In this document: positions 6,807-61,977 of the stretch, in pieces | How the letters are laid out: every line of letters starts with the position of its first letter | Position numbering within the stretch: position 1 is the first letter of the stretch | NCBI GenBank assembly: GCA_000004985.1 | Contig: GG738914.1 | DNA from: Naegleria gruberi | Lineage: Eukaryota | Length of the DNA: 64,000 nt | Reading direction: 5' to 3' (one strand) | Translations under genes and position numbers: made by a program | Notes under the pieces: generated by a model | What the model was told of the DNA's origin: nothing | The model's database searches: none | Seen by the model: the letters and a program-made list of their open reading frames with translations, nothing else

Positions 6807-6887
6807 GTATGTTTTTTGTTTAATTTTTTTTTATTAATTTCATTAATATTTTTAATATTTGTTTAATTTTATTTAATTTACAAATAG

Positions 6888-7210
6888 ATTTAAATACACC
6901 TGAAGATAATCCAGTAGAATATGGACCATATGATGTGAATAGAGCAGTGTATGGATTAAAAGGAAATAGTTTGTTAATATATCCTAAATATAGAAGTGGA
7001 ATATTGATGCATACAGGTGAATGGAATATTAAACCAAATGATCCAATGCCAAATTCACATGGTTGCATTCATGCAATGCCACATGATATTCAATTAATTG
7101 CAAATATTTTAAAAAATGAATTGGGTGTTGTTGCAAATGAAAATACTTTTGGTAAATATCCATATCCATATCAACAACAAGGTTTATTAAGTGTTGTTTT
7201 AATTAAATAA
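6888..7210 (+). CDS. exon 2 of 2: L,D-transpeptidase (YkuD/ErfK-like) catalytic domain
   Basis: An 81-nt intron (6807..6887, GTATGT…CAAATAG) restores the frame. The exon translates …LNTPEDNPVEYGPYDVNRAVYGLKGNSLLIYPKYRSGILMHTGEWNIKPNDPMPNSHGCIHAMPHD… The ILMHTG and SHGCIH(A)M motifs match the LIHGT / SHGC(I/V)R active-site signature of L,D-transpeptidases. The TAA stop is at 7208..7210. Confidence 0.7.
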
Positions 7211-7377
7211 ATTATTTACCTTTCAACTCTGCTACTCTTACTCTTGGTTCAGCAAACATTGTATGAAGTAATGGCTAAATCAATAATGGTACTTGTAGTG
7301 TACACAATTGCTTTTCTTTTGGTATTTAGAGGCAAAATGTATCAGTTCAAAGTAATGGAATATTTAAGGTTAAAATT

Positions 7378-7450
7378 TGCCGACACCAGGGATCGAACCA
7401 GGGACCTTAAGATCTTCAGTCTTACGCTCTCCCAACTGAGCTATGTCGGC
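7378..7450 (-). tRNA. tRNA-Phe: tRNA-Phe (anticodon GAA)
   Basis: The reverse complement reads GCCGACATAGCTCAGTTGGGAGAGCGTAAGACTGAAGATCTTAAGGTCCCTGGTTCGATCCCTGGTGTCGGCA. It has a canonical cloverleaf, an anticodon loop CTGAAGA, A and B boxes and a discriminator A. The track ORF 7244..7489 overlapping it is spurious. Confidence 0.9.
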
Positions 7451-7547
7451 TTCTTGCTTTGTAAGATGTTTCATCAAGCTTGCTTATAAATGAAATGGTG
7501 GCGTTATTCCACCACACGCAAGAACTTTAGAATTTAAAACAAAAAAA

Positions 7548-8522
7548 ATGACAAAAAAGAAAAAGTCACATAATGCTGGTTATCAAAGTGGGAAGAAGCA
7601 AAAACCCAAACAACAACAGCAACAACATTCCTCCGATGAAGATGACTATGATCATACTCATCCTATGAACGTGATGGACATGATGAATCAATTCTACTCT
7701 AACATCCCAGCCACCGTCTATAGTAATGGTCAAAAGATTGAACATGCCGATAGTAGGAATGCCTTTTCATCGTTTATGAGCAATTTACCATCGGATAGTC
7801 AACAATCAATGAAGGAATTAATGGCTAGAAATTTACATTGTGATGAGGATCAAGTAGAGGAAATTTATGGTAACAAGAAGAAGAATAATAACAATCAAAA
7901 GGCTTCAGCATCAGAAAAAGCAAAATCTAATTCTACACCAACTAGTGTTGCTACTTCTTCTTCTGCTACTCAACAATCAAAGAAGCCTCCTGTAAATATA
8001 TTCAATATGGAGCCTTTAGGAGAAACCCTGAAGGAGCTTAGGTTTGCCACGAGTGCTGAGTTTGATGAGCATTCGAGAAAGTTTGTGGAATTTCATTCCA
8101 AGTGTGCTAAGGCATTAAAGGAGGAGTATGGAATGCACACTGATCGTATGGTTGGTATTCCTATTGCTACTTTTGATTCGGAATTATTGGAAATTGCTAT
8201 AGAACAAGCAGCTCTTACCAGAGAAACTCAAGCTAATTCGAATAAGAAGGAAGACAAGGAACATGTTATGCCGCTAGAGCCATTCTTGGATAAGACATCA
8301 TTACCTGATTGGCATGTATTCAAAATTAATGGAAAGGGAAGTGTTATTGCAGGTCAATTGGCAGCAACTCTTTGTAAATTGTTCAGATTACCACTTGGAT
8401 CTATTAGAATTATTTATACTAAATATTACAACTGGAAACGTGAATATAAGGAAGCAGGCGAATTTGAACCAAGAGGAGAATATATAATTGCTGTCCTATT
8501 CCAATACAAAGAAAGGTATTGA
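7548..8522 (+). CDS. hypothetical protein, 5' part. It is probably continuous with the next ORF through a +1 frame change.
   Basis: aaaaaaaATG start, 324 codons, acidic/Ser-rich N-terminus. Frame A stops at 8520..8522, while frame B opens at 8488, only 35 nt earlier. Confidence 0.5.
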   Translation: MTKKKKSHNAGYQSGKKQKPKQQQQQHSSDEDDYDHTHPMNVMDMMNQFYSNIPATVYSNGQKIEHADSRNAFSSFMSNLPSDSQQSMKELMARNLHCDEDQVEEIYGNKKKNNNNQKASASEKAKSNSTPTSVATSSSATQQSKKPPVNIFNMEPLGETLKELRFATSAEFDEHSRKFVEFHSKCAKALKEEYGMHTDRMVGIPIATFDSELLEIAIEQAALTRETQANSNKKEDKEHVMPLEPFLDKTSLPDWHVFKINGKGSVIAGQLAATLCKLFRLPLGSIRIIYTKYYNWKREYKEAGEFEPRGEYIIAVLFQYKERY

Positions 8523-9600
8523 GGAATTTAAAGAATGGAAAAAGAAAGTAGATACATACTCTAAGAGCTTTGGATATTTCAATACCAGGTCTGCTGAGGA
8601 TATTATTAAATCCAAATTAGATTGGCGTGAAAAGAGTAAGAGAGTTTTCAAGCTCGAACTCGACACTTCCAAACCACTTACTGAGGAAGAAAACCTGAAT
8701 TGGCTTAAATATTTCCATGACAGAATGATTACTCAAAAATTGCACAATGATTGTTGTGATGATGAAGTATTTGATGGTAGTGTTGAAGTAATATGGAACT
8801 GCCTGCAGCACATGATGAGACAATTGTATGACCCTTCCATATCAAAAGAATACTTACACAATTTCGTTGCTCAAAATGTATTCCTTTCCATTCGTCCAAA
8901 CTATAGAGATCACAAATTCTTGTGTGGATTTAAATCATACACTAGATTCTACTCTCTTCATTCATATGGTTGTGTGGATTTCAAGTATGCATTCTTCCAT
9001 ACAACAAAATACTATTCCCACGTATTTTACACAACTCTACTTTATAGAATTGTTGATTTGGCAGATAAGGAAAGCAGAGAGGATCAATCGTCTGGATGGA
9101 AACCTGTATGGGATAACAAATTAGCCAACGATCCAAGATTCCAAGAAGAAGATTGGATTACTATTGAAAAGAGGCAAGTGAACATTACTCTTCCAGAAAT
9201 TAAGGAAATTAGAGAAACTTTAATTGGAAAAGAAGGAAAATTGAATTGCATTCCTATTAGCAAATTCCTGTACACTATATCGAACGGAACTGGTGCTGGT
9301 AGTGGTGAAACTACGCTTGTTGATGATGATAAATGGATCGAAGTTAGACTAAGAAAGATTTGTAATGAACTAAAACCAGAAGATGCCGAATTCAAGGAAC
9401 ATGATTTCAATAAGGATATTCAAAAACAATTGGAAGAAATGAAAAAGAAAAAACCAAGCAAGAAGAATAGAAATCCAATGCAAAGCGACGCCAGCTATCC
9501 CAACGATGAAGAATCTGGTAACATGTATAGAATGTTAAAGAATGGAAGAGGTGGTGGCGATGGTGGATTTGGAGGACCTCCAGGTTGTGGCCAAATGTAA
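8488..9600 (+). CDS. hypothetical protein, 3' part of the same gene, or an independent gene. It ends …GPPGCGQM, a CaaX-like C-terminus.
   Basis: 370-codon open frame without an early ATG (first Met ~74 codons in). The C-terminal Gly-rich tail ends CGQM. Confidence 0.5.
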   Translation: MLSYSNTKKGIEEFKEWKKKVDTYSKSFGYFNTRSAEDIIKSKLDWREKSKRVFKLELDTSKPLTEEENLNWLKYFHDRMITQKLHNDCCDDEVFDGSVEVIWNCLQHMMRQLYDPSISKEYLHNFVAQNVFLSIRPNYRDHKFLCGFKSYTRFYSLHSYGCVDFKYAFFHTTKYYSHVFYTTLLYRIVDLADKESREDQSSGWKPVWDNKLANDPRFQEEDWITIEKRQVNITLPEIKEIRETLIGKEGKLNCIPISKFLYTISNGTGAGSGETTLVDDDKWIEVRLRKICNELKPEDAEFKEHDFNKDIQKQLEEMKKKKPSKKNRNPMQSDASYPNDEESGNMYRMLKNGRGGGDGGFGGPPGCGQM

Positions 9601-9702
9601 ATAAATCTCTAATTCTTGATTGTTCCAATTTAATAATAGGAAATTATTAATATTTGAAGATATTTGGGATTTTAAAGATTGAGTTTTTTAGTTGTTTTAT
9701 AA

Positions 9703-12700
9703 TTACAATTCATCTTCTTCAATTTCGATTTCTTCTGTAACAAGGGCAATATCCTTAGGTTTTGGTTCTCGTTTTTGGTAGTGATCATAGGAGGTGGCAG
9801 CACTGTAAGATCTTGGGCTGTCAATGGAAGATTCTTCATCAGTCATTGTGGAATCATTTCTGTTTCTTCCTCCTCTTGGTGACATAGCAATTCTTGAACT
9901 GAGTCTTGACAATGTATTATTGTAAATTTCCACATCCAAATTGTGAGATAATTCCATTTCCTTATCTTGTTTTTCTAGTTTGTCTGTGATCTTGGAAGCT
10001 TTGGAAGTGGTAAACTTTCTTTTAACTTTACCACCTTTTTGTTTAGCCAATCTAATCTTCTTTTTGATACGTCTCAAGTTTACCAATCCTTCCATAATAT
10101 CTCTAATATTCTTACTATTATCCTCATCACTAGAATCAGAATCAGATTCAAAGAGAGTCAAATTAAATTCTACCTTTCTCTTTGAAGTGTTCATTCTAGC
10201 ATAAGCGTCAACATCATCTGGAATAAAGAGTGGATTCTCTTCAACTACCCAATCATCATGGAATTCTTCATAACTATCACATAATGGATTCTCAATAATA
10301 TTCCACTTTTCTTGTGCTTCCTCATCTTCCAATAGTACAACCTTAGTCATTTGAGTTAACGGATTACCAAATAGTTTGGAATATAATGCTTGGAGTGACT
10401 TGGCCTTTTCTTTACCGTACTTTCGTTCCAATTCTCTTCTGGCCAATCTTTCCTTCTTTCTGTCCTTCTTTCTTCTGACATAGATATCATAAATAAGCAT
10501 TCCCAAAACAAGCACTATAGATACTACAATAACAATGGAGGCAATCCATTCACAAAAACCACGCAGGGTTTCATTTCCTTTCCAAGCACCATCATCAACC
10601 AAGAAAAGTAAACCAAAGAACAAAACCAATTCAGTACACACTAGAGAAACCCATTCGAGGAGATTGTGGAATTTGGTCTTGAATGGCACAAACTGTGATT
10701 GCAACAGGAAAGCAATGAATACAGTAATCAGAGCAAAGGTAACAGTTTGAAGAGGAAGTAAGAAGGTGTTGAAGATGGAGAGAAGCAACTTTCTGAAGGT
10801 AATAATAATTTCCCAATAGAAGAGTCTCTTCTTGAATCTGTTTTGGATAAATTTGAATCTCAAATCGAAATCTTTAACTTTCTGTAACAAGACAGGATTC
10901 TTTGGCTTCCATTTGAGTTCGTCCAATTCAGTCTTTGTCAAATCTGGGTTGTGTATCAACAAATCCTTTCTAACTTCCAACTTCAAATGTTTCTTATAAA
11001 TATAGAGCGAGAGGAAGAACAAGATTGAACCGAGACCAAACACGACAAAGTAAATAATAGCTAGAGGTAACATGGCAATCCACTGAGGATCCAAAATACT
11101 GATATCTGGACTCGATACAAGTGCACAAGTATTGTCAGGTTGAGGTGTACAATAGAAAATGTCACTGGCTTGTGAAATGATAAAAGCAAAGGTAAAACTG
11201 AGGAACGCAGTGTAGCCATTGATCAATTGATTGAAGAATACTTTCATTTGTTTGGCGCTCATCTTTTCCTTAAGAAGCCAAACTAAGAAGTTTCGTAACC
11301 AAACAAACAAATTGATAAACCAAATCTTCCAATCATTGAGATTTTCAATGATCCTTCTCTTCAATCTTTGTTTCTTGTTGAGCTTCTTTTCTTCTTCCTT
11401 CTTTTTCAAGTATTCCACTTCATCAATATCGTTGTGATATCTGTACGGTTCACGATATTCAAATTTCACGTGATGTCCAAACTTGCTAACAATAACATTT
11501 CTCAAAATTCCCAAAATATACAACAGCACAAACAGTACAAATACATAAACTGGGAAGAGTGAGGTCAGATACCATTTGGTTAGTTGGTTAATGTCTGGGA
11601 AAATACACTTTGGATTGATAAAGTCAGTATTGAAAAGTGTTGCAGAACTGGCCGTATAGGAATATTCCATTACAACAGGCCACTTGACGTTATATTTGGT
11701 GAACATGGCAACAACTTGGAAGAATGACAGTGCAATAGAAATAGAAGCCAAATGTGAAAGTTTGATACTACTGATCAATAAGAAAATTAAAACTACAACC
11801 AACATGAGTATACCAAATCCAATCAATCTCCAGATAGCATCGTCTCCACATTTAGTACAGAAACCATTGAATTTGTAATAACCAACATCACAAGCTCCAC
11901 ATTTTCCTGATATATATCCAACTGTACAATTTTCAATTGAAAAACCACCACAAGCTTCAATAGGAAGACAACTGTAAACAGTGTAATTGTCATGTTTTCC
12001 CATCCAGTAACCTTTCTTTGGATATGGATGTATGTTGTTTCCAGCGTTACAAATCATAGATTGCTCATTACATTTTACGCAATAGTCATCCAACTTCTTT
12101 GGGCTGGGATTGAGATAATAATTATTTTGACAAATACATTCAGTGAGTGAGGTAGAGGCCTTTTGAAGTGTTAAAGTGTTTACCGGACAAGAAATACATT
12201 CCTTGGCTTGGAAAGATGATGAATAAGTATTAAAATCACATGGAATACAAGCATTACTGTCATTGATTGGTTTGTAGAAACCTGGCTTACATTCTTGACA
12301 TACATCTCTGTAAGAGGAAGCTCCGTAACCAGCCATACATGGAACGTATTCAAACATTGATTTGGCATCACTGGAAAGTTGTAGAGCATTGGTGTTTGAT
12401 GAGCCATTCTTAAATGCAGCATATGTGAATCCTTCTCCATTCAAAGAATACCACTCTCTTCTATTCACAGATAAGGAAATACTTGTCAAACCTTTCTCTC
12501 TCTTTGGAGCTATACACATGATAATATTTTCACTCATCACAGTACAAACATCTGTTGAAATAACAGTTCCAAACATTGCCCTAATCTCTACAGTTGCCAA
12601 TTTTGAAATATTAACTACTTGTGTAATACCCTCAACTTGGAGAGTAACTGGAATGTCATCATAGGTCCAAGTCTTCTTTGGATTGACGTTTAAAACTTTC

Positions 12701-15700
12701 AATCTATCATAAATGTATAAATTATATGAATTACTATACTCTGATCGAGAATTATATAATTGCACATAGAAGGAAGTATCTGCAGAGGTTATAATCTGAG
12801 AAGGAATTTCACAATTGATCTCAGAGGAAACTGAAGTTAATACTTTGGCTACTCTAACAATTTGGTTACTAATACTAAATTGACAACCAACAGCAGCGCC
12901 AAGATTCTCACCTACAATTGTTACACTTGTTGGTATGTTTCTTTCAAGGAGGTATGGTTGAACATTGATAATACGTGGCTCGTCATATTTGCTCTTAATC
13001 AAGATTGGCAAGGAGAATGTATCAATTCCATTGAATGTAACAGTAAATGTTGTTGCAAATGGGAATTCTAATATGGAATAATCAGGAAGTGTATTATTCA
13101 ATGGTGGATAGAGAATGAAAAGTGAAGAGTCCACACATGTGAAAATATCACTTGTTGACAATCCAGAACCTTGATAGAAATTAATAATATTCTGCAAAGA
13201 AAGAGTCAGGGATGAGAATGATGAGCTTGTGGCAATTGTGAATTGCAAATTATTGGTATTGCCACAAGGCAATGCTTGACTAAAGTGTAACATTAAACTG
13301 TTTGGTACAATTGTAAGGATTTGATTCGTCTGAACAAAATCAGGTGTAATATTATCAATACTTGTCAGTTGTCCACCTGAACTGTAAGTTAAAGAGTTTA
13401 CAGTATTGAAGGATGAACCAGAATCAAATGACAATAATAAATCGTAGGAACCAGAAGGTGCATTTCCAGGATTACTCAATTCTACATAGGTTGAGGTAAC
13501 AGAGACCGGTGAGAGTCCTATTTCTTGACCTAAAATAGCTCTTCTTGTAGATTTGAGTTGAAGTTTACCTTGAATCTGTGAGATTACCAATACACTTGAA
13601 AAACTTCCATAAACTTTGATAGTAGGTGTTGATGAAAATACTAAGCTTGGAGAAATGCTGCTGAATGTTGGCATTGGAATTACATTGACAGTTAATGAAC
13701 CTGCTTGGATTGGCTTTTGTTGAGAATAAACAACCACAGAATAAGTTCCTGTTGTAGATGGAGCACTATCAAGACAAAAATCAAGACCACTAATAGAGCA
13801 TGAAGTTAGCCAAGTATCTTGTTTGTTGATTCTCAAGGATACTTGTAAAGGTAGCAATGGAGAATCAACTGAAACACCACTGATTGATACCTTAATTGCT
13901 GATCCAGAAATTGCCTGAGTTGGAGAGATGCTTATTGATGCCAAAACAGCAAAATCTAAATGCAAATTGAAATCTCCAAACGAGTAACCATTATCTAAAG
14001 ATAATTGGAAAGGTATTCTCTTTGGTAGTTGTCCTCCAAATAAGTAAGTGAGTGGAACAGTTGTGAATGTAATCTGATTAGTATTTTGGTTGTAGGTACC
14101 ATCAAGAACTTTGCTATTGATATTATCATTGAGCTTGATCTTTGGTTGTGTATTTCTTGGTAAACCAAGGACATTGATACTGACCAAAGTGGCAGAATAA
14201 ACATCAACTGTTGCAGGAGAGGCAGAACCAATAGATCCAGACCATGAATAAATTTCAACAGTTTGACTGAGAGTAATGTACGAGCTGAAATCATCAAAAC
14301 TAAAATCAACAAATAAGAATCCAGGATTGCTTGACAAGATTGTTGGCAAAGGACAATCAACTTGTGTGGCTGACTTTTTAACACAACCATTTGTTCCTTC
14401 ACTCACCACTAATTGGCTGACTGAACTTCTGTACTTGACAGCAAATGTAACGAGTCTACTGTCAAGAGTAGAAGCAAATGCTATGGACAAAGTACCAGAG
14501 TTTGATGTCTTGCTGGCATCAATAATACTTGGAGAAATACTGGAAACAGCTGAAGGTTTGATTGCTGTGAATAGCGAGATCAGTGTCATACTTGGGAAAC
14601 CATCAATGTAGAGAACGACATAGTACTGCTTGGATGTGCTACTCACTTGTGATTGAACATTTGGTGTAAGGCAGTTCAAGAATTTACCTGAGCTTGTGAG
14701 CAATTGGCAATTTTGGAGTGGTGTCATTATCTTCTTATTGTCAATGAATAATAATGTGAATGAGTATTGACTCATCCAATTACTATTTCCACCATGATTT
14801 ATGGATTTAATGGTGTCAAACATATTTGAATAGGTGAGTGTAACATTTTGTCCTCCATACACTGTGCCGTAAGGTAAACTCAATGGGAATCCAACATCCA
14901 AAACTAATATTTTCTTAATATCAGTAATAAAATTACTGGTTCCATCTATTACTAATTGTACAGAGCTAAATCCCGACTTGGTAGTTTTAGCAAGTTTGCA
15001 TTTAACAACAGTGGATGATATAATGATAGCACTAGTTTGATATGATGTACCGTCATTATCATTTTTAACATAGCAATTGAATGAATATGTAGTATTGAGT
15101 GAATATTTTGACAAGTAAATTGTAATGTAACTATAATCTCTAATACTAATGTCTGAAGTGGTCAGTACAAATGGACTGATCTTTTGAACTGTCAATAAAT
15201 CATAAACTACCAAGGAGTAGGTTTCTACTTGGGTGTTAGATTGAGAAATTTCCTTGTTAGCCACATTCATATAGAAGGAAGTAACAAATGGAACAGATTT
15301 CTTTGGTATGTAATTGGTTGGTGGCGAAAGATTATCAACTGGGCCAACATAAGGTGCCACAAAGTATGGTGCTGAGCTTTGGTCAATTCCAGATAAGATG
15401 GAAACGGATTCATCCTTCATCTGAACTGATATTTGCAAATTCTGTGGACTGAAATCGTAAGGAATAACAAATGTTCCATTGTTGAATACCGAAGCAGCGA
15501 CCATATCCATATTATTTCTGTTTGCAATTGGAGTAGGAACTGGCAACACTGGAATCTTCTTGGCATTTGTTAAGTATTGATAGTTTGAACTTTGATCTGG
15601 AATTCCAAGACGAAGTTCTAACATTTTGTTAACCTTACTAACAGCAGTATCTGTGGAAAAGACACAACTCAAAATATCACTTCCAACAATCTTTGTTACG

Positions 15701-18700
15701 AAAGTGCTAGCCACTACAGATCCATCAAGAGTCAACACGCATTTAACAATGCCTGTTTCCACTACGTCAATGGTGGAAACTGAAACTTGGAAGTCTGGAA
15801 TTGTGTTTACAAGTTGATCATTAATTGTCCACAAGTATGGATTAGTAAAGGATATTGTTTTGACAGTTTCAAAGTAAAGAGCAAATTGGTTACTTGTAAT
15901 CTTGAAAGGAACAGATACAGCTCTGGTAATAGCATAAATATCAAAGAATGTCTTTCTACTACCAGTCAATGAAGGACATGTAACCACATTACCAACCACA
16001 AAGGCATCAACTGCAGTTAGAGCAGATGCTGAACTAATAGCACATTTGTAAACAATATTTTCCATAGAGCCGAACGAATTCAAAGATACCTGAACAGTTT
16101 GAGGAGTATTGAGAGTAAATTGTGGAGTGACTGTGGCAACGCTATAGGTATTTTCGAAATATAAAGTAACTGGAGAGGAGGTAATTGAAGTTTCAGAACC
16201 ATTAGCATAATAGAACAAATCAGCAGATACAGAACCAACCTGTGAATAAGTAATAGAGCAAGTAATTTGATCAACAGTGCTAGATAAAGCTGTAACTGTA
16301 GCTTTGTAAAGTGTAGTTGAAATTTTACAATAAAGATTATTCTTCACAATTGCAGATGGTACAACCAAAGATCCATAATTTAACACAAATGAAACAGATG
16401 AAACAGAATTAACCAGTAAAATATCGGATTGACCACTGGCAATACTGAATGGTATTTTTTTCAATACTTGGAAATTTCCCTTGTTGGCTGTAATATCCAG
16501 AGTGAATGGGAAATTATTTGCTAACAAGTATTTAGTTGACACAGAAACTCTATAGTTACCAGAGTTAGAAAATGTAAATGATGAAGACGAAGAGGTGACG
16601 CCTTGAACTAGATTGTATGGAATATTATTTTCCAATTTCAAATTAAACTCATTATCAAATACAGTGGTAAGATTTGAGTTTGGTCCAAGTGTTAATGAAG
16701 AGGAAAATAATGTAATTACTGATGAAGCAACGCCAACAGTATCGATTACAAACGGTGGATTGACTTGTATAATGTCCACTGGTGAGTAGGGAACAATAGG
16801 AAGGGACAATACCTTTGGTACGGTTTTGATTTCCAAGTTATACTGATAGTACGGCTTGATAATACTGCTAGATCTTAAATCTGGTATTATGCATGAATAG
16901 GTTTGGAATGCAATGAGAGAACAAGTGAAAGCTCTTGTTGGTTCATCAACAAAGCTAACTGAAACGCTAGATTGATCTATGAAGTCAGAGTAGAGTGTAG
17001 CAGTTGTTCCACCAGAATACAGAGCAGTTGTTGGACTCAAGAATGATCCACCAATGACGTTAATAGTAGCATAGGTATTGGTAATGGAAAAATATGGTTT
17101 TCCCTGAAGACTCAAACCAATAGAAAGTTGATATATTCCTGAGTAGTGTTCTATTTCTGTGCAATTGAATACACCTTCGTTGATGATTTTTGCAGGGAAT
17201 ACTCTATTCAAACTTTGGTCTGATACTGAATTCCACACACAACCAAAAGAAGCTTCTCCAAAGTTAGATGATGTATTGAATGCTGTTGTGATAACAATTG
17301 AGAATTGTTTGGATGTTTGAACGCTATACATGGAAACAGATTGTATGTTAACTGTTGGAACTACTGTTAACTCTTGGTCGGTATTCGCAGATAGTACGGA
17401 TTGGAATGTTTTGGAAATTGCTTGTACATTCTCAAAGTAATTGATACTCAAAGTAAGTTTACCATAAATGTTTGAATTTGGAATAAAGGCACAATTAATA
17501 GAAGTCTTTTGAGCTACGGTTATTGTTCCCAAAACATATCCATTTGCATTAGATAGCATACAATAAACTAAATTGTTTGCAATAAGACTGTATGGAATTG
17601 TTTGATTAAAACTGACAGGTACAGAAAAGGAACCACTAACTGCAAACAGATTTGATCCTCCAGTAACTGAAACATTACCCTTTTGTAAATAGTAAACCTC
17701 AGAACTGAGTTTGGTTACCTGCAAAGGAGCTGAGTCGAGTAACAAGTTAGTTACATTGAAGAATGATGCAAATTGGACAACTCCAGCATTAACCTTGGAG
17801 GAAATCATTGGATCCAAATCACACAACAAAAAGTCAGGAGTACTGATAGTTTGACCTTTTGTGAATGGAGCATTTGACAGGGTCATATTTACATCTTTAG
17901 ATGTTAAACACTTCCAATCAATACCTAACAATGAGTCATAGCTATTATGGAATGACAAATAAACTTGTGGACTATTTGACACAGTATCTGATGTAATAAC
18001 TTTTGGATAAACATTGTCAACATTCACAGTTTGATAAGCAACAATCTTGAAACTCAGTGTTGTGAGAGGTTCCTTATAGTTAACACCAGCAATTGTGAAT
18101 GAGGAATAAAGGGTTGCTGTTATGGTCTGAATAGTTTTGGAGAATGAAATAGTTCCAGTAGTGATGGTACAGACAATACGATAGGTGGTCTTTGCAATAT
18201 TGCAACCAATCTCACGATTAGTTCCCTCAAAATTCAAACGTAAGCTGTATGTAAGGAAAGAAGTTTCGGATGGTAATGACATAAAGCTATCCTTGGAAAT
18301 AATCTTGAAAGAAATGGTAGGTAATTGAGTCGATTCAATATAATTTGGAGTTGGTTTGATTGTATCAAAAGGTAGTTTGAGTGGAGTTTTAGAAATATCC
18401 AATTGGAACGTTTTGGATGTTGTGGTATCCTTTGTCATTTCTAAAGTTATATTCCTTTCTGATGGACTGTTGATTCCTGTGAAGAGTGTGGATCTTGAAG
18501 ATATTTCACATCTAACCATATCATCTGAGAGAATTGTAGAATCGTAAAGAGTACTGCCAATTCTGCACTTGTACTGGATATTGGTTCTTCTTGTAGCATC
18601 AAAAGTCACTCCCAAAAATACGTATTTGAGATCAGTTGTGTCAGTTGCATAATCCAAGATAGAAGGGAAAGACTCTGCGATACTCAAATATTTGGTTACA

Positions 18701-21747: not shown

Positions 21748-21793
21748 CTATATTATTAAATATAAACAATAAAAGAATTATTGTAAAACATAC

Positions 21794-22830: not shown

Positions 22831-22941
22831 CTGATGATGAAAATCATAATAAATTAAATATATTAAATTATAATCATAATTAATATTAAATATGTAAAGT
22901 ATTGTTGTTATATGTTAATTAATGTAAATAATAAAACATAC

Positions 22942-24564: not shown

Positions 24565-24568
24565 ATCT

Positions 24569-25259: not shown

Positions 25260-25298
25260 CTTCTTTTTAAATATATTATTAATAATATTTAAACTTAC

Positions 25299-26548: not shown

Positions 26549-26591
26549 CTATTGTTTTTAAATTAGTGTAATTGTGTGAAATAAAACCTAC

Positions 26592-30579: not shown

Positions 30580-30631
30580 TATTTCAACCAAACTAGGATT
30601 ACTTGGATCCAATAAAGGTAGTTCCAGTTTA

Positions 30632-31257: not shown

Positions 31258-31301
31258 CTATTCAACACAGTTAAAATAATAAATATAGATCAATAACATA
31301 C

Positions 31302-55712: not shown

Positions 55713-55845
55713 CTATAATTATATTAAATAATATAAATAATCATTTGAGTATAATTATCATTCGTCATCAATTAATTGATTTTAAAATCCAATAAGAATA
55801 ATAAGAACATTAACCATTAAATTATCATCTCGAATTAAAACATAC

Positions 55846-56213
55846 GTTGCAGTTAGATACATAATAAAAACAACAGCAGCCTTTGAAAAGGCTAATTTGG
55901 TATCATTAGAAAGTTGTACCTCATCAGGAATTATTCTCCTAATCACTCTCAACACATTTGATCTTGGTAAATCAAAGCTATATTCTCCTTCGCCACCATC
56001 ACCACCACCAGATGTTGAATTTGCCAAACTAGATGATGAAGCACTTGCCGATACGGTTTGTTGATGACTTGTACGATTACCTGCTGAAGATCCACCTCTT
56101 GTACTTCCCTTCTTTGGTCCTCTCTTTCCAGGTGTTGATTGTTGTTGTTGTTGCGGCTGTGGTGGAAGGTGATGAAATCCACCGTGGAATGGCTGATGAG
56201 GAGGATGATCCAT
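55846..56213 (-). CDS. histone-fold protein (NC2-beta/Dr1- or NF-YB-like), exon 1 of 2
   Basis: ATG at 56213. Gln/Pro/Ser-rich N-terminus, then FDLPRSNVLRVIRRIIPDEVQLSNDTKLAFSKAAVVFIMYLTA, which is the H2B-like histone-fold helices 1-2. The exon ends …GCAAC|GTATGT (phase 2). Confidence 0.7.
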
Positions 56214-56570
56214 CTTGTATTCTTGTTAATGTTATTTTGTTTTTAATATTTTAAATTTTAAAAAATAATATTTAAAAAAATTTACAAATCCAGTTTGATG
56301 AATTAATTTTTGGTTTTCATTGTTGTTTTTGATGATGAATTAATTGTTAGAATTCATGGAAACAAATTTTAGGAATCAAGATATTTCCGAAGGCTTTGAT
56401 GATTCATTAGAATTTTACGTTTTTTACAATATTTCTCGGATAGATGTAAAGAAAGGAGAAAGGAAATTAGTTTGTACTCATATCTTGATTATAGGAGGTC
56501 CAAGGTAGCAAGTCCTGAGTTTCTACGCCATGTCCTGTAAAAGGACAAATTCCAATCATCTATTTATGTG

Positions 56571-57581
56571 ATGAAGATTGATTCCAAACAAAGCAACACA
56601 ACAAACAAAATGTCTAGAATTATTCTCTTGACTGGTGCTACAGGTACTATTGGAAAGCTTTTACTTGAATTTTTGAATGAAAAATCAACAACAGAAGAAT
56701 TGACTGTTAGAATTATTGTAAGAAATGTTGAGAAGGCAAGGGAAAATGTAAAGAATTTTGAAAAGTTAAAATTTGAATTTGTTGAAGGAGATTTGAATGA
56801 TTTGGATAGCTTGAAGGATCCACAAGAGGTATTCAATCAAATTGAAAGATTATTTATTCTCACAATTGATAGTCCTGATAAATCAGATATTGAAACTAGA
56901 TTGGCAGAGTTGGCACTTGAACATTCACCATCTTTGGAACAAATTGTCAAGTTCAGTGCTTTGGGAGCATCTGAAGATTGTGAAACAAATAGTGTTTTCC
57001 GTTGGCAAGGAGAAGCTGAAAAGTCACTCATCAAGCTCCTTAAAAATCATAACAAGAAAGAAAAGAATCATTTGGTTTCACTTGTCTTGATTAGACCTAA
57101 TCTATTCATGCAAAATTTATTGTGGAATGATGAATTGGAATCTATTAAGGGAGGATTTCTCATTCGTCCAGATTCCAATCCAACAAGTTTATTCCACATT
57201 TCTCATGTTGATGCCAGAGACATTGCCGAATTAATTTCCATCGTATTATTGGAGAAGGATCACAAGAAGCATGGCAATCAAACCTATAACATTACAGGAC
57301 CAATGGTTTTAACCTATGAAGAAATTGCAACCATGCTTTCCAATCATTCAGGAAAGGAAATTACCTATCAAGCAGTTCCAGAATCCTACTATGCTGACAT
57401 TCTCAAACAAGCTCAACTTCCCAACGAGTTCATCTGGACAATGCTCAAACTCTATCAAACCTACAAGTGGAATCCAATGACTCGTCTCATTTTCAGTGAT
57501 TTCCAAATAATCACTGGCAAGCCACAACGTTCCTTTGAGCAATTCCTCTCTGACTATCAATTCTCCCTCAAATTACAATAA
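56571..57581 (+). CDS. NmrA-like / atypical SDR NAD(P)-binding protein
   Basis: A Rossmann motif (M)SRIILLTGATGTIGKLLLEFL lies near the N-terminus. A second ATG at 56610 is an alternative start. The track ORF begins at a GTG at 56568. Confidence 0.8.
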   Translation: MKIDSKQSNTTNKMSRIILLTGATGTIGKLLLEFLNEKSTTEELTVRIIVRNVEKARENVKNFEKLKFEFVEGDLNDLDSLKDPQEVFNQIERLFILTIDSPDKSDIETRLAELALEHSPSLEQIVKFSALGASEDCETNSVFRWQGEAEKSLIKLLKNHNKKEKNHLVSLVLIRPNLFMQNLLWNDELESIKGGFLIRPDSNPTSLFHISHVDARDIAELISIVLLEKDHKKHGNQTYNITGPMVLTYEEIATMLSNHSGKEITYQAVPESYYADILKQAQLPNEFIWTMLKLYQTYKWNPMTRLIFSDFQIITGKPQRSFEQFLSDYQFSLKLQ

Positions 57582-57689
57582 ATCCAATGATTTTACAATA
57601 TTCTCCTCAACAACATGTAAAACTGAAACAAAATGACCTGAAATGAACTTTGATAAAAAGTTCATGGCGCCAAAATAAATACAAAAAAA

Positions 57690-58066
57690 ATGTCTCAACA
57701 AGAATCATTAGATGCTCCACCAATTATTGAACAAATGGTGATGCAATCACAAATGTTTGAAGATCCGATCACTGGTGAGATGAATGTGAGTCATACCTAT
57801 GTAAAACCAAACTGTGGAGGAGGAAAATATCATGGTGAATTAATTGATGTTCGTATCAAGGCAAAGAAGGCTCATGATTTGTATCAAGTCATTGTTAAGC
57901 CTCATGATCAAAAAGTCATGAAGGGAATTGGAAGTGTCAGAGTTCTTCATAATGATCAGGAACTTGTTGCTGATAGCTCTAACTTTGGATCGGAAAGTTC
58001 AATTGATCTCGATTTTAAAGCAAGTAATGGAATGAAGGTTGTTGTTGAAATCGATTGGAAGTACAA
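57690..58066 (+). CDS. small hypothetical protein, exon 1 of 2
   Basis: aaaaaaaATG start. The apparent TAA stop at 58068..58070 is part of an AA|GTAAGT donor (phase 2). Confidence 0.55.
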
Positions 58067-58114
58067 GTAAGTTTATTGAGGAGTATATTTTATATTCATT
58101 TTTCTTATTATTAG

Positions 58115-58202
58115 TATTAAAGCTGTTTGGCCACCAATCATTCAAGAAGAATTAACTGTAGATAGTCATAAAGAAGTCCACATTGTTGTGAAAGTCAAAT
58201 AA
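58115..58202 (+). CDS. small hypothetical protein, exon 2 of 2
   Basis: A 48-nt intron (58067..58114, GTAAGT…TTATTAG) continues …WKY-N-IKAVWPPIIQEELTVDSHKEVHIVVKVK*. Confidence 0.5.
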
Positions 58203-58254
58203 GAAGATTCAATTGTGAACTATTCAATGAAATGTAATTAAATAATTATGAAAA

Positions 58255-58794
58255 TCAATCATGCACTACAAATTTCTTATCAGTGACAATTGCAAGATAT
58301 TTGCATTTCTTTAAAAAGAAAAAAGCCAATGGACTATTTTGGACGTTCACTGGTACTTTCTTTTTGTAATCACTATCATAACAATCAATAATGGGTTTGG
58401 ATGCAGTTGCAAAATAGATTTTCTTCTTATAGAGATCCAAAGCAAATTGGGTTGGTGGATTACTGCAATAAGTTTTGTTCACCACTTTCATTTGCTTTGA
58501 CAAATGATATATTGTATAATAATAATGTGGTCCAAATGTACAAGTACTCAGAATCAAATTATGATTCAATTCATCATATCCAAATCCATATAATCCACCA
58601 TTTGACTTATCGACCCCTTTTGCCTTAATTTTATCCAATACTTGACCTGTCTTGGTATCCATCAAGTATATATGTTCTCCATAATCCGGCATACTATAGA
58701 TTATGCCTCTTTCATCCTCCAAAAATCGTTGATTACGTGCTTCAACATGAACACTCCACAATACAGACCCACTCTCCAAATCTACTTTTTTCAC
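58255..58794 (-). CDS. hypothetical protein, C-terminal segment (possible beta-propeller-like repeats)
   Basis: Its frame stays open upstream across the stop of the previous ORF, so a -1 frame shift joins them. There is no ATG, GT donor or AG acceptor in the ~70-nt overlap. Confidence 0.5.
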   Translation of the reverse strand: MKKVDLESGSVLWSVHVEARNQRFLEDERGIIYSMPDYGEHIYLMDTKTGQVLDKIKAKGVDKSNGGLYGFGYDELNHNLILSTCTFGPHYYYTIYHLSKQMKVVNKTYCSNPPTQFALDLYKKKIYFATASKPIIDCYDSDYKKKVPVNVQNSPLAFFFLKKCKYLAIVTDKKFVVHD

Positions 58795-58835
58795 CTCTGT
58801 TCCATCACCATTAATAAGGAAGCTTTTCTCTGTCT

Positions 58836-59177
58836 TTAAAGGAAATAATCTAGAATAGGGTTGGGCCAGTGCATATCTTCCGAGTGTTTTAATTTGAATT
58901 TCGTTGTGGAATTATCATCATCAGCATTAATTATAATAATTTCTCCAACAAACACTTGCGGATTGTTGTCTGGTGAATAGGGATTATTAACTTTTACAGT
59001 GATAGCAACAATGTAATCCTTATCGGAATGAGGACAGTGAATCGAGCTCATGACACAGTTTTCATTCTCCAGCAGAGGAAAATCAATATTTGCCACTACG
59101 TTTTGTTTAGATTGATAACCTTTATTATCATCACTGCTGAACTGTTGCTGTTGAGCATTAACGTTGTTCGTGCTCAT
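58836..59177 (-). CDS. hypothetical protein, N-terminal segment. A frame break separates it from the next ORF.
   Basis: ATG at 59177 (MSTNNVNAQQQQF…). Confidence 0.5.
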   Translation of the reverse strand: MSTNNVNAQQQQFSSDDNKGYQSKQNVVANIDFPLLENENCVMSSIHCPHSDKDYIVAITVKVNNPYSPDNNPQVFVGEIIIINADDDNSTTKFKLKHSEDMHWPNPILDYFL

Positions 59178-59301
59178 CGTATTTTATTTCAATATCTAAT
59201 ACAACAGCAAAGTGAACTTGATCTCTACTAACTTTAACATGTTTGTACTAAGGAATTTGGAAATGGTTGCCAACTTGTGTTGAGGGAAATATTGTTGTGC
59301 T

Positions 59302-61008
59302 TTATTCCTTCTTTTGATGTTTACCTGTTGATGGAATAAGTGTTAAAAATACATAAATTGGAATGAAGAGGAGATGTCCAATCCAACGCATTGATGAGAA
59401 GAATTGAATGGAACTATCCCATGAAAGTAAGAGGAATGGTGGTAATAAATAACTGGTGAAAATATTGGTTCCAATGAAGGAGAGGGTTTTGTAAAAGATG
59501 GACATGAATTTGGAATTCTTTTCACTGAAAGTATTCTCCACATCATTCAAAAAGAGTGGACGCACTTTCTTGTGAGCCATTCTTCCAATGAAATGCAAAC
59601 AAATAGCATAGTTTGTCCACATGACATAGTAACCAGAGTAAAGACCGTGCCATGAAGCACTAACGAGGAAAGTAATGATGGTATTCTTAGTGCCAGCTCC
59701 AGATCCAACTCTTGAATAGACATAGTTACGGAGCCATTTGGAAACTGAAACATTCCATGTTGTGGTAATATCACGAAGATTTGAAGAAAGAAGATGATTC
59801 AAATATTCAATTGATTCACATCCAGCATAGCTGTACTGATCTGTCTTTCTATCCTTTTGATATCCCATACCACAGATAATCATGGCCGATTCAGACCAAC
59901 ACCAACCGACAATATATTTGAACTTGATTGCAACCATACATGCCCACGAGAAAGCAAGTTTGTACAATAGAGAACTTCCGAATAATTGTTGATCTCCCAC
60001 TCTATCATAAATAACATCCTCCAATTGTGGTCTATCAAAGATTGGCAATGCCTTCAAGGTCAATACCATATTCACCATAGCAATTAAAAGATTTGTGAAA
60101 ATTTTCTTCCAGTGAATTGGTGGATTTTGACGATTTGGTTTCAATTCCATCTTGTTTAAGAATGAAATATCCTCATCAAACTCTCCATAAATCATTCTCA
60201 AGTAATCACTAATTTCATAAATTGGACCTGTCAAAATTGAAGGGAAGAAGAACATGTAACTGAAATATTCCAATAGCCCTGGCATTCTCTCCATACGATT
60301 TACCTTGTGATAATAATTCATCTTTTCATCAGATTGAGCAATCATTCCATCGTAGATATTCCAAGCAACTGAGATAGTCTTGAGAGTGGCAAGCATTTGA
60401 AGTCCAGTAAAATCCAACTTCCAACCAAGATAATCAGTAATCATTCTATTATAATGACAAATTAACAAGTATCCAAATGAAAAGAAGAAGGCAAATAATG
60501 GAACAATCAATCCCAACCTCGATTTCTTCAAATATTCTCTCACTGAACTACTCATTCCAACTGTCAAAAACAACCACACATAAACAATCAAAGGAATGGC
60601 AACTGAATGCAAAGTAGCACTTCCAAATGTGTAGAAACAATAAAACAATCCAACAATCAATCCAAATAATATCCTAGCCATTCCAAAAGGTAAACTTCTC
60701 ATCAAGAATGCCATCGGAATATTCACAACAATCAAAAACATCATATATGTACAAGCACTCACATCCAAACCAACCAATGAAGCAGCCTTTTCCATCCATT
60801 GATCCACAGGCTTCACCAGCCTTTTCATTGTTTCAATCATCATCACCAAGCCTTCGTGCGAACCAAGTAAAACACCTGGCCATGATATCAACTTTCCAAC
60901 CATTCCATCCAACCATATATTCCCCACCAAATTGGTTCCAATACTTCCTTGTTGCATTAATTTTCCAATCAAATCAGAAACACCCACATCAATAGACGAT
61001 GATGACAT
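59302..61008 (-). CDS. membrane-bound O-acyltransferase (MBOAT) family, lysophospholipid-acyltransferase-like
   Basis: ATG at 61008. About 10 TM helices. Conserved MBOAT block WNVSVSKWLRNYVYSRV…TFLVSASWHGLYSGYYVMW, including the invariant His. Confidence 0.9.
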   Translation of the reverse strand: MSSSSIDVGVSDLIGKLMQQGSIGTNLVGNIWLDGMVGKLISWPGVLLGSHEGLVMMIETMKRLVKPVDQWMEKAASLVGLDVSACTYMMFLIVVNIPMAFLMRSLPFGMARILFGLIVGLFYCFYTFGSATLHSVAIPLIVYVWLFLTVGMSSSVREYLKKSRLGLIVPLFAFFFSFGYLLICHYNRMITDYLGWKLDFTGLQMLATLKTISVAWNIYDGMIAQSDEKMNYYHKVNRMERMPGLLEYFSYMFFFPSILTGPIYEISDYLRMIYGEFDEDISFLNKMELKPNRQNPPIHWKKIFTNLLIAMVNMVLTLKALPIFDRPQLEDVIYDRVGDQQLFGSSLLYKLAFSWACMVAIKFKYIVGWCWSESAMIICGMGYQKDRKTDQYSYAGCESIEYLNHLLSSNLRDITTTWNVSVSKWLRNYVYSRVGSGAGTKNTIITFLVSASWHGLYSGYYVMWTNYAICLHFIGRMAHKKVRPLFLNDVENTFSEKNSKFMSIFYKTLSFIGTNIFTSYLLPPFLLLSWDSSIQFFSSMRWIGHLLFIPIYVFLTLIPSTGKHQKKE

Positions 61009-61295
61009 TTTCCTTTTTCTCTCTCTTTTATAAACCTAACCAAGTTTCACTATTATCTTTTCGTAGCTGCTGTTTGTTTGTTTGCTGTTATCTTTGAAAA
61101 CTACAAAAAAACCTGTGGCGCGTAATTTTGTGTTTTTTTTTGTTATGTGTGAAGTTTACTTGAAGTGTGTTTGACAATGATGACGAGAATTTGTTGAAGG
61201 TTCATCACCTCAACTAGCTCCGAAGGGATTGGTTTGTGTAAAGTAGGTGTTTGAATGCTGCTGAACTTTCTTCCATGGTTTTATTGGAATGTATA

Positions 61296-61861
61296 TTACA
61301 ATTTGGATGGCAATTCAATGATTATTTTGGTTCCTTCATAAGGTGGAAGATCAATTTGTAATTTATCCAATAGAGATTGAGGCATGAATCGTCCACCAAT
61401 GAAATGTCTTCCCTTAAAATGAATGGCACACTTCTTTGGAGATGGCAATGAGACAATGACATCACATCTCAATCCAATCTGTAAATTTTCCTCAATATTT
61501 TCATTATCAACATCCCATCCACTTGGTAGATCAATTGAAAGAATTGGAGTGTTATTTCCTGGCTTTTTTAAAGTGTCAATAACTGTCTTGAAAGGTTCTC
61601 TAATTCCTTGTTTTCCTGAGAAGGAATATCCAAAGATTGCATCAACAATGAAATCGAATGAAGAATCTTCCAATAATGGTGAATTAGTTTCATAATGAAT
61701 TGGAATTGAAAAGTGGGTACATTGTAAAAGCAATCGCTTGTATAAATCCTTTTGTGCAGCCTCCTTCTTTGGATATAAAACAATTGGAGAATAACCAAAT
61801 TGTTTCAAATGTCTGGCACATACCAAACCATCACCTCCATTATTTCCAGGTCCACAAACAA
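61296..61861 (-). CDS. NAD(P)H-hydrate epimerase, exon 2 of 2
   Basis: A 116-nt intron (61862..61977, GTATGT…AAAATAG) gives …[36 protein letters not shown]…VDAIFGYSFSGK…ILSIDLPSGWDVD…, collinear with AIBP/YjeF_N. Confidence 0.85.
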
Positions 61862-61977
61862 CTATTTTCAAATATTATTATGAAAATATATTAAATATTA
61901 TTACAATTATTAATAAATATTAATAATTCCAGAATATTAATCATTATGAAATCAAAAGTATCGTGATGAAAACATAC

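What the first reader, a model, noticed from the sequence alone, without database searches (positions are those of the whole stretch)
6807..61977. Consistently tiny spliceosomal introns (36-48 nt typical, up to ~133 nt) with GTAAGT/GTATGT donors and a poor acceptor context
Eleven introns could be placed from frame continuity plus homology, listed strand, span, length:
- + 6807..6887, 81 nt
- − 21748..21793, 46 nt
- − 22831..22941, 111 nt
- − ~25260..25298, 38-39 nt
- − 26549..26591, 43 nt
- − 31258..31301, 44 nt
- − ~55713..55845, ~133 nt
- + 58067..58114, 48 nt
- − 61862..61977, 116 nt
- two unresolved, near 3250 and in 38537..38930
Donors are GTATGT in six cases, GTAAGT in two and GTAGGT in one. 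Acceptors are (T/A)AG preceded by A/T-rich sequence without a long polypyrimidine tract. Several introns create false in-frame stops that truncate the six-frame ORFs, for example TAA inside GTAAGT at 58068. Such short, information-poor introns matter for gene calling in this genome and are themselves a lineage signature.
Basis: seen in the sequence. Interest (0 to 1): 0.5.

Follow-up and report, generated by a model that had tools for sequence, protein, structure and literature searches.

The report
Short spliceosomal introns of Naegleria gruberi

Summary
The window is Naegleria gruberi NEG-M nuclear DNA, from a 233-kb scaffold; several window proteins match NCBI proteins exactly. All nine placed introns are GT..AG, very AT-rich (9-23% GC against 29-43% in flanking exons), and restore one reading frame.

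- Five reproduce reference proteins exactly.
- Two are crossed by a Pfam domain (Laminin_G_3 strongly, YkuD just under Pfam's cut-off).
- One is fixed by an ungapped paralogue alignment.
- One (22831..22941) rests on intrinsic evidence only.
- 58067..58114 is absent from the reference model, which stops at the TAA inside GTAAGT. It is nevertheless real: the spliced C-terminus aligns to an intronless N. fowleri homologue.

"Consistently tiny" is overstated. Two annotated introns were missed (159 and 186 nt). The unresolved site near 3250 is probably a 497-nt intron. The twelve lengths run 39-497 nt, median 96.

The donor is information-rich (GTAnGTTT). Acceptors lack a pyrimidine tract, but introns are almost AG-free, so the acceptor is the first AG beyond about 37 nt.

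The phenomenon is already known. The modest additions are one annotation correction and the AG-exclusion pattern.

The parts
6807..6887 (+). Intron, 81 nt, phase 1, GTATGTTT...CAAATAG, in a YkuD-domain gene (6137..7207)
   Evidence: GT..AG and 9% GC. Splicing gives a 330-aa ORF. The Pfam YkuD match 212-299 runs across the junction at residue 223/224 (E 1.6e-4, just under Pfam's cut-off). The catalytic SHGC motif lies in exon 2. The exact protein is not in the collection, so the reference model differs somewhere.
21748..21793 (-). Intron, 46 nt, phase 0, GTATGTTT...AATATAG, in a 4488-aa LamG/EGF giant gene (9703..23326)
   Evidence: The Laminin_G_3 domain 455-614 (profile positions 11-150 of 151, E 1.8e-15) crosses the junction at residue 474.
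22831..22941 (-). Intron, 111 nt, phase 1, GTATGTTT...CATCAG, same giant gene
   Evidence: Intrinsic evidence only. GT..AG, 13% GC, read-through stop after 7 codons. Exon 2 has about 300 strongly coding codons before its first ATG, so it needs an upstream start exon; exon 1 supplies the ATG and a membrane anchor. The acceptor is the first AG in the intron.
25260..25298 (-). Intron, 39 nt, phase 2, GTAAGTTT...AAAAAGAAG (tandem AG; the 36-nt alternative ends at 25263)
   Evidence: The 39-nt version aligns without a gap to the annotated tandem paralogue across the junction (IQTVF|LTTVHLSGAM against IQYVF|LTTVHLSGAM, 55% identity). The 36-nt version would add a residue. Neither version is an exact match to a reference protein.
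26549..26591 (-). Intron, 43 nt, phase 2, GTAGGTTT...ACAATAG
   Evidence: The spliced 384-aa product is identical to XP_002670577.1.
31258..31301 (-). Intron 3 of gene 30632..33030, 44 nt, phase 1, GTATGTTA...GAATAG
   Evidence: The four-exon model (669 aa) is identical to XP_002670578.1.
32470..32628 (-). Intron 2 of the same gene, 159 nt, phase 0, GTAGGTTA...ATATTAG.
   Evidence: Required for the exact match to XP_002670578.1.
32805..32990 (-). Intron 1 of the same gene, 186 nt, phase 1, GTAAGCCA...AATTCAG.
   Evidence: Required for the exact match to XP_002670578.1. Second-longest AG-free run in the window.
55713..55845 (-). Intron, 133 nt, phase 2, GTATGTTT...AATTATAG, in a histone-fold (CBFD_NFYB_HMF) gene
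   Evidence: The spliced 190-aa product is identical to XP_002670584.1. The CBFD_NFYB_HMF domain 82-145 crosses the junction at 122/123.
58067..58114 (+). Intron, 48 nt, phase 2, GTAAGTTT...TTATTAG. Not in the reference annotation.
   Evidence: XP_002670532.1 is the unspliced 126-aa ORF ending at the TAA inside the donor. The spliced tail NIKAVWPPIIQEELTVDSHKEVHIVVKVK aligns to the C-termini of P0133 (N. fowleri assembly, uninterrupted 534-nt ORF in L004) and P0134. A near-identical strain shows 4 differences including a 1-nt deletion in the 48 nt, against 1 synonymous change in the 87-nt exon 2.
61862..61977 (-). Intron, 116 nt, phase 1, GTATGTTT...GAAAATAG, in the NAD(P)H-hydrate epimerase (YjeF_N) gene
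   Evidence: The spliced product is 100% identical to the N. gruberi protein P0001 across the junction. The YjeF_N domain is continuous. N. lovaniensis has an intron in the same codon and phase (L001).
3234..3730 (-). Probable intron, 497 nt, phase 1, GTATGTAT...TATAATAG. The first exon would be 3731..3791 (MYEQLVQHKKIENYLKKLKT).
   Evidence: ORF 1471..3233 has no ATG for more than 200 codons and starts inside a PH domain. TAG at 3234 is the only acceptor in the short stretch where the ORF's frame opens; the next AG lies about 30 nt inside the ORF. An ATG exon in the correct phase ends at GTATGTAT. It extends the PH-domain matches towards the N-terminus (PH_31 E 1e-4 to 1.9e-6). A 466-nt AG-free run, the longest in the window on either strand, ends at the acceptor. 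Not confirmed: the 607-aa product is not in the collection. A 49-nt alternative (3234..3282, GTAATAAT donor) is not excluded.
38778..38822 (-). Weak candidate intron (45 nt, GTATGTTA...TTTACAG) in the unresolved stretch 38249..39010
   Evidence: ORF pieces lie in three frames with no GT..AG able to join two of the switches. No Pfam match. The first-AG rule would predict a 38-nt intron here instead. Left unresolved.

Best explanation
The listed gaps are ordinary U2-type (GT-AG) spliceosomal introns in protein-coding genes of Naegleria gruberi strain NEG-M.

Shown here: each is an AT-rich, non-coding insert bounded by GT and AG. Removing it restores a single reading frame. The spliced product matches reference proteins, domain models, a paralogue or intronless homologues.

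Inferred mechanism, from established knowledge of the major spliceosome:
- The conserved donor GUA(U/A/G)GUUU is read by U1 and then by U6 snRNA.
- A degenerate branch site (YUAAY-like) is bound by U2.
- The 3' splice site is simply the first AG downstream. No pyrimidine tract is needed, but AG must be kept out of the intron body.

The introns are few (about 12 in roughly 38 genes of the window) and range from near the minimum workable size (39-48 nt) up to about 0.5 kb.
For: Organism: window proteins are identical to N. gruberi NEG-M proteins on a 233,110-bp scaffold. GC of 33-35% agrees with the published 33% (PMC8296547).

Exact matches of spliced models to reference proteins cover introns 26549, 55713, 61862, 31258, 32470 and 32805.

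Domain continuity across junctions:
- YkuD
- CBFD_NFYB_HMF
- YjeF_N
- Laminin_G_3

Other homology:
- Ungapped paralogue alignment across 25260.
- Intronless homologue across 58067.
- Same codon and phase in N. lovaniensis for 61862.

Composition and divergence:
- Intron GC is 0.09-0.26 against 0.29-0.43 in exons.
- Divergence from a near-identical strain is 6/248 in introns against 12/2627 in exons (odds ratio 5.4, P = 0.003). Exon indels are multiples of three.

Splice signals:
- Donors are GTA[TAG]GTT in 10 of the 11 confirmed introns.
- AG is depleted inside introns: 5 observed against 23.3 expected, while GA is at 1.42 times expectation and intergenic AG at 0.91.
- The acceptor is the first AG giving at least 37 nt in 11 of 11.
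Against: No transcript evidence could be reached with these tools, so splicing itself is inferred.

- Three spliced models (6137..7207, 24569..25744 and the 607-aa PH/ankyrin model) are not exact matches to any protein in the collection. The reference models differ from mine somewhere in those genes.
- 22831..22941 rests on intrinsic evidence only.
- The branch-site motif is only weakly enriched: 9 of 11 against 5.6 in shuffles, P = 0.04.
Confidence: 0.94

Rival explanations
1. 58067..58114 is not an intron. The gene simply ends at the TAA, as in the reference annotation, and the downstream 28 open codons are chance.
For: XP_002670532.1 is exactly the unspliced 126-aa ORF. The related strain keeps the same stop. 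The coding score of exon 2 is modest, 5.1 bits over 27 codons.
Against: Two homologues of 139 and 177 aa continue past ...(D/E)WK(Y/C) with N..WPP...VD....KVK, matching the exon-2 peptide to its last residue. One of them is an uninterrupted ORF in an N. fowleri assembly. The donor is the full consensus GTAAGTTT. The 48 nt carry 4 differences including a 1-nt indel, while the next 227 nt carry one synonymous change.
Confidence: 0.07
2. Some of the frame breaks are sequencing errors or pseudogene lesions rather than introns.
For: The window does contain such lesions: frame switches with no possible GT..AG at 8488..8522 and 58839..58911, and an in-frame TAA at 40696 inside a BTB domain.
Against: None of the nine listed sites looks like that. 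Each has a full GTAnGT donor, an AG acceptor, a 39-133-nt AT-rich insert and in-phase exons. Six of the eleven confirmed introns reproduce reference proteins exactly.
Confidence: 0.03
3. The intron at 25298 uses the upstream AG (25263, 36 nt), alone or alternately with 25260. This would be a NAGNAG-type tandem acceptor.
For: AAAAAG|AAG offers two in-frame acceptors 3 nt apart. The 36-nt one is the first AG after the likely branch site.
Against: Only the 39-nt version aligns without a gap or mismatch to the paralogue. Neither version matches a reference protein exactly.
Confidence: 0.15
4. The intron ending at 3234 is the 49-nt GTAATAAT...TAG (3234..3282), with a 7-nt coding first exon ATGTTTT, not the 497-nt one.
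For: Correct phase, and a size typical of the small class.
Against: The donor lacks G at +5 and T at +6, which every confirmed intron in the window has. It leaves the PH domain shorter at its N-terminus. It does not explain the 466-nt AG-free run upstream. The product is not in the collection.
Confidence: 0.2

Closest known systems
Annotated spliceosomal introns of Naegleria gruberi NEG-M (JGI/NCBI gene models; genome paper Fritz-Laylin et al. 2010, not held here; statistics quoted in PMC8296547)
   Same: Same organism and same scaffold. Six of the eleven confirmed introns are in the reference models to the base. The low intron density agrees with the published 1.7 exons per gene.
   Different: One intron (58067..58114) is absent from the reference model. 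The window's mean of about 125 nt (median 96) is below the published mean of 203 bp for all models. That figure is a mean and may be raised by long or forced introns; this was not tested.
Introns of N. lovaniensis and N. fowleri
   Same: GT-AG, GTAAG-type donors, 55-233 nt, AG confined to the first ~40 nt. The YjeF_N intron sits in the same codon and phase in N. lovaniensis.
   Different: Presence varies between species. N. lovaniensis has an extra YjeF_N intron that N. gruberi lacks. The N. fowleri homologue of gene 57690 has no intron.
Short introns of fission yeast and other fungi; GTATGT donors of budding yeast (own knowledge, not tested here)
   Same: A 40-50-nt size class, strongly conserved GTAAGT/GTATGT donors, the first AG after the branch used as acceptor, weak pyrimidine tracts.
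   Different: Yeasts have a strong branch consensus (TACTAAC or CTAAC). Here only a weak YTAAY enrichment is seen. Here AG avoidance covers introns of 100-500 nt almost end to end.
Short introns of the heterolobosean Acrasis kona (PMC11589745)
   Same: A related lineage. Predicted introns are mostly very short (9-95 bp reported), with about half of genes carrying introns.
   Different: The size range reported there is narrower than in this window. Splice signals were not compared.

Membership tests
U2-type (major, GT-AG) spliceosomal introns | GT at the 5' end and AG at the 3' end on the coding strand | tested here: met
   All nine listed, plus 32470..32628, 32805..32990 and 3234..3730.
U2-type (major, GT-AG) spliceosomal introns | 5' splice site fits the GTRAGT/GTATGT-type consensus that pairs with U1 and U6 snRNA | tested here: met
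   GTA[TAG]GT in 11 of 12 and GTAAGC in one; T at +7 in 10 of 12. The pairing itself is established knowledge, not tested here.
U2-type (major, GT-AG) spliceosomal introns | Removal restores one open reading frame; retention gives a premature stop or a frameshift | tested here: met
   Read-through stops after 1-21 codons.
U2-type (major, GT-AG) spliceosomal introns | The spliced product is colinear with homologues or domain models across the junction | tested here: met
   Met for 10 of the 11 confirmed introns. Not available for 22831..22941.
U2-type (major, GT-AG) spliceosomal introns | Branch-site adenosine in a recognisable motif about 10-40 nt upstream of the acceptor | tested here: inconclusive
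   YTAAY lies within -40..-6 in 9 of 11 against 5.6 in composition-matched shuffles, P = 0.04. It is absent in 58067..58114. The motif is frequent by chance in such AT-rich sequence.
U2-type (major, GT-AG) spliceosomal introns | Pyrimidine tract before the acceptor (typical of animals, not universal) | tested here: not met
   The T fraction at -20..-4 is 0.24-0.71, no higher than the introns' overall 49% T. This feature is dispensable in many protists and fungi (own knowledge).
U2-type (major, GT-AG) spliceosomal introns | Absent from mature mRNA | not testable with these tools
   No transcript sequence could be reached. Exact look-ups of spliced products returned only genome-derived entries, and a junction pattern was not found in metagenome contigs.
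U2-type (major, GT-AG) spliceosomal introns | Non-coding composition and relaxed constraint compared with exons | tested here: met
   GC is 0.09-0.26 against 0.29-0.43. Divergence between strains is 5.4-fold higher, P = 0.003, with a 1-nt indel tolerated.
U12-type (minor) spliceosomal introns | Donor [AG]TATCCTT and a TCCTTAAC-like branch site | tested here: not met
   No donor has ATCC at +3..+6.
Self-splicing group I or group II introns | Several hundred bases of conserved RNA structure | tested here: not met
   Inserts are 39-186 nt. Rfam at gathering thresholds finds only three tRNAs in the window.

The most novel reading that the evidence does not exclude
In Naegleria the 3' splice site may be defined almost solely as the first AG beyond about 35-40 nt from the donor, with AG removed by selection from the whole intron body, even in introns of 100-500 nt.

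Support in hand:
- AG is at 0.21 of expectation inside 11 introns.
- The acceptor is the first eligible AG in 11 of 11.
- The longest AG-free run in the window is the 466 nt ending at acceptor 3234.
- The same pattern holds in four N. lovaniensis introns.

This would mean the branch site is so degenerate that any internal AG competes as an acceptor. It would also give a simple rule that could repair gene models such as XP_002670532.1.

The sample is about 16 introns, the 37-nt threshold was chosen after the fact, and AG-free runs of 80-170 nt also occur outside introns.
Probability: 0.4. Interest if true: 0.4.

Novelty: already known. Interest (0 to 1): 0.2.

Why it matters
For the genome scan, this finding is explained: it is normal gene structure in a sequenced and annotated protist, not a new element.

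Its practical value is for gene calling:
- At least one reference protein in the window is truncated because a 48-nt intron whose donor contains TAA was read as a stop.
- Gene callers built for prokaryotes, applied to a near-identical metagenome strain, split or truncate the same genes (P0123, P0129, P0136, P0137).
- The conserved 8-mer donor together with the first-AG rule would be a cheap and testable way to re-annotate short introns in Naegleria, including the pathogen N. fowleri.

Tried and rejected
- A concatenated query of 12 uncertain products and the N-terminal 626 aa of the giant protein both returned nothing from the search for homologous proteins. Low-complexity words probably filled the candidate lists.
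- Exact look-ups of contigs for window ORFs and for P0001 found nothing.
- Metagenome scans for relatives of the YkuD protein and for the spliced 58066^58115 junction found nothing.
- PDB hits to the YkuD protein cover exon 2 only, so they say nothing about the junction.
- NCBIfam and relaxed Pfam searches gave no domain across 31258..31301 or the SAM-like exon.

Models tested and rejected or left open:
- Not in the collection: the 36-nt version and alternative starts for gene 24569..25744, alternative starts for 6137..7207, a 370-nt 'intron' to bridge the 8488 frameshift, and both first-exon models for 1471..3233.
- Brute-force intron solving from gene range and product length in the N. lovaniensis and N. 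fowleri loci was too ambiguous to use, apart from one unique 55-nt solution.
- The donor hexamer alone is not enriched in the window: 25 GTATGT against 28 expected. Context, not the hexamer count, carries the signal.
- An early guess that the 4011-codon ORF was dynein, and that the organism was a yeast or a dictyostelid, was dropped.

Full report
**What the window is.** GC content is 30-37% throughout. The window is packed with long ORFs on both strands. The spliced product of 61978..62383 + 61296..61861 (-) is 100% identical to an NCBI 'predicted protein [Naegleria gruberi]'. The next best hits are N. lovaniensis at 63%, Willaertia magna at 56% and N. fowleri at 53%.

Exact-sequence look-ups then placed eleven window proteins in N. 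gruberi strain NEG-M, all on one 233,110-bp scaffold. The finding therefore concerns the nuclear genes of a sequenced and annotated heterolobosean amoeba.

**Checking the observation.** All nine coordinate pairs are GT..AG on the stated strand.
- The donor tally is correct: six GTATGT, two GTAAGT, one GTAGGT.
- Acceptors are seven TAG, one AAG and one CAG.
- Lengths are 81, 46, 111, 39, 43, 44, 133, 48 and 116 nt.
- Splicing at the stated bases gives one uninterrupted frame in all eight genes.
- Read-through meets a stop within 1-21 codons.
- Introns are 9-23% GC, against 29-43% in the flanking 100 nt.

**Evidence for each intron.**

| Intron | Evidence | Calls |
|---|---|---|
| 26549..26591 | Spliced product identical to XP_002670577.1 | 17 |
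| 55713..55845 | Identical to XP_002670584.1; histone-fold domain continuous across the junction | 8, 17 |
| 61862..61977 | Identical to P0001 across the junction; YjeF_N continuous; N. lovaniensis has an intron in the same codon and phase | 8, 14, 30 |
| 31258..31301 | My first two-exon model was not on record.
| 21748..21793 | A Laminin_G_3 domain (E 1.8e-15) spans the junction | 20 |
| 6807..6887 | A YkuD domain spans the junction, E 1.6e-4, just below Pfam's cut-off | 8 |
| 25260..25298 | The 39-nt version aligns without a gap to the annotated tandem paralogue, which has its own intron at the same codon; the 36-nt alternative does not | 39, 63 |
| 22831..22941 | Intrinsic evidence only: consensus donor, 13% GC, and a downstream exon of about 300 well-scoring codons with no ATG, which needs the upstream start exon | 19, 36, 52 |

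**The intron the annotation lacks.** The reference protein for gene 57690 is the unspliced 126-aa ORF that ends at the TAA inside GTAAGT. A full HMMER scan with that ORF found two longer homologues. Their C-termini...WKCNTMDRWPPTLKTTLKVDQKKKVSSLVKVK and ...WKCNTMDKWPPKLDIPVHVDSKHATTTTAKVK, align to the peptide encoded after the proposed intron...WKYNIKAVWPPIIQEELTVDSHKEVHIVVKVK.

One of these homologues is an uninterrupted 534-nt ORF in an N. fowleri assembly. A metagenome contig from a 97.7%-identical strain carries 4 differences, including a 1-nt deletion, in the 48 nt. The 87-nt second exon carries one synonymous change.

**The two unresolved sites.** Near 3250, the ORF 1471..3233 starts inside a PH domain and has no ATG for more than 200 codons. 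TAG at 3234 is the only acceptor in the short stretch where its frame opens. A 61-nt ATG exon in the right phase ends at GTATGTAT at 3730. Three things favour this donor:
- It lengthens and strengthens the PH matches.
- The 466 nt before the acceptor contain no AG.
- That AG-free run is the longest on either strand of the window.

I rate this 497-nt intron about 0.7 likely. A 49-nt alternative with a poor GTAATAAT donor is the rival. Neither product is on record.

The stretch 38249..39010 (-) reads as protein-like pieces in three frames that no GT..AG can join. It remains unresolved and may be a decayed gene.

**Size and signals.** With the additions, the window holds twelve introns of 39, 43, 44, 46, 48, 81, 111, 116, 133, 159, 186 and about 497 nt. 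The median is 96 and the mean about 125. 'Consistently tiny' therefore describes only the lower cluster. The published mean for the genome's models is 203 bp, with 1.7 exons per gene (PMC8296547).

The donor is not information-poor. It is GTA[TAG]GT in 11 of 12, with T at +7 in 10 of 12 and T at +8 in 8 of 12. There is indeed no pyrimidine tract. A branch-like YTAAY is only weakly enriched: 9 of 11 against 5.6, P = 0.04.

What does stand out is AG avoidance:
- Intron interiors hold 5 AG against 23.3 expected from their own composition (Poisson P about 5e-6).
- In the same interiors GA is at 1.42 times expectation. Intergenic AG is at 0.91.
- Every internal AG lies within the first 35 nt.
- In 11 of 11 confirmed introns the acceptor is the first AG giving at least 37 nt.
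- Four N. lovaniensis introns show the same pattern, with AG up to position 40.

Caveats apply. The threshold was chosen after seeing the data, the sample is small, and AG-free runs of 80-170 nt are common in this AT-rich DNA. One 165-nt run lies inside a coding exon.

**How it most likely works.** What is shown: the inserts are non-coding, are bounded by canonical signals, and must be removed to give the proteins that homologues and the reference annotation show. What is inferred from established knowledge of the major spliceosome:
- U1 and then U6 read the strong donor.
- U2 binds a loosely defined branch site.
- The first downstream AG is taken as the acceptor.

A loose branch signal together with a first-AG rule would explain why AG is kept out of the whole intron and why no pyrimidine tract is needed. 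Direct RNA evidence could not be reached.

**Comparison and novelty.** These are members of the ordinary U2-type class. They are not U12-type, since no ATCC donor is present, and not self-splicing, since the sizes are too small and Rfam finds only tRNAs.
- Short introns and low intron density are already documented for Naegleria (PMC8296547), and short introns for the related Acrasis (PMC11589745).
- Conservation of Naegleria intron positions with other eukaryotes has been noted before (PMC3488318).
- A literature search found no description of AG exclusion in Naegleria. The 2010 genome paper itself is not held, so this gap is not proof of novelty.

**Verdict.** The phenomenon is already known. 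The small additions are one corrected gene model, two missed introns, one probable long intron, and a testable first-AG rule.

Noticed in passing
40696..40698 (+), within gene 39367..41049: An in-frame TAA sits in the middle of a BTB domain. The same frame continues straight on ('...GEFTPD*SEDLELLEIVIKHCYG...') for 113 more codons. The reference protein XP_002670527.1 stops at this TAA (443 aa). This could be a nonsense lesion or pseudogene, a sequence error, or read-through. It is not an intron.
   Followed up: partly
8488..8522 (+): ORFs 7548..8522 and 8488..9600 overlap by 35 nt in different frames, and no GT..AG fits in between. This is an apparent frameshift in one gene. A 370-nt bridging 'intron' model is not in the protein collection.
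   Followed up: partly
58839..58911 (-): A second apparent frameshift. The beta-propeller-like ORFs 58839..59183 and 58258..58911 change frame within 73 nt that contain no GT at all.
   Followed up: partly
38054..38144 (+) and 37385..37469 (+): A class-II tRNA, read by eye as Leu with anticodon AAG, carries an 11-nt insertion after anticodon-loop position 37. That is a tRNA intron, a different kind from the finding. ARAGORN could not name it. About 600 nt upstream lies a degenerate paralogue with deletions in the anticodon arm. A tRNA-Phe sits at 7378..7450 (-).
   Followed up: partly
24569..25744 and 25885..27082 (-): Tandem paralogous multi-pass membrane proteins with no Pfam family, 55% identical. 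Each has a 39-43-nt intron in the same codon and phase, but the intron sequences are unrelated.
   Followed up: yes
6137..7207 (+): A secreted-looking protein carries a bacterial-type L,D-transpeptidase (YkuD) catalytic domain with the SHGC motif, in a eukaryote, and the domain is interrupted by a spliceosomal intron. This is a possible old horizontal transfer.
   Followed up: no
whole window, both strands: The donor-like hexamer GTA[ATG]GT occurs 7 times on the sense strand of exons and 25 times on their antisense strand. This could reflect selection against cryptic donors, or simply codon bias.
   Followed up: no
L002, L003, L008 (ENA ERZ929261, project PRJEB11402), matching window 57320..58436, 55766..56415 and 29020..32545: A metagenome holds a Naegleria strain 93.6-99.6% identical to the window. 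Its prokaryote-style gene calls read through introns and split genes (P0123, P0129, P0136, P0137).
   Followed up: yes
L001 10001..10990 (N. lovaniensis) and L004 3001..3534 (N. fowleri): Intron presence differs between Naegleria species. N. lovaniensis YjeF_N has an extra 133-nt intron after 'MEMAG' that N. gruberi lacks. The N. fowleri homologue of gene 57690 has no intron.
   Followed up: partly
41570..42883 (+) and 50277..51941 (-): Two proteins are made almost wholly of DUF4116 repeats (9 and 14 copies, E 1e-127 and 1e-147). Neither ORF translation is an exact match to a reference protein, so their annotated starts or structures differ.
   Followed up: no
38249..39010 (-): Protein-like ORF pieces lie in three frames next to the tRNA genes. 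No family match was found.
   Followed up: partly
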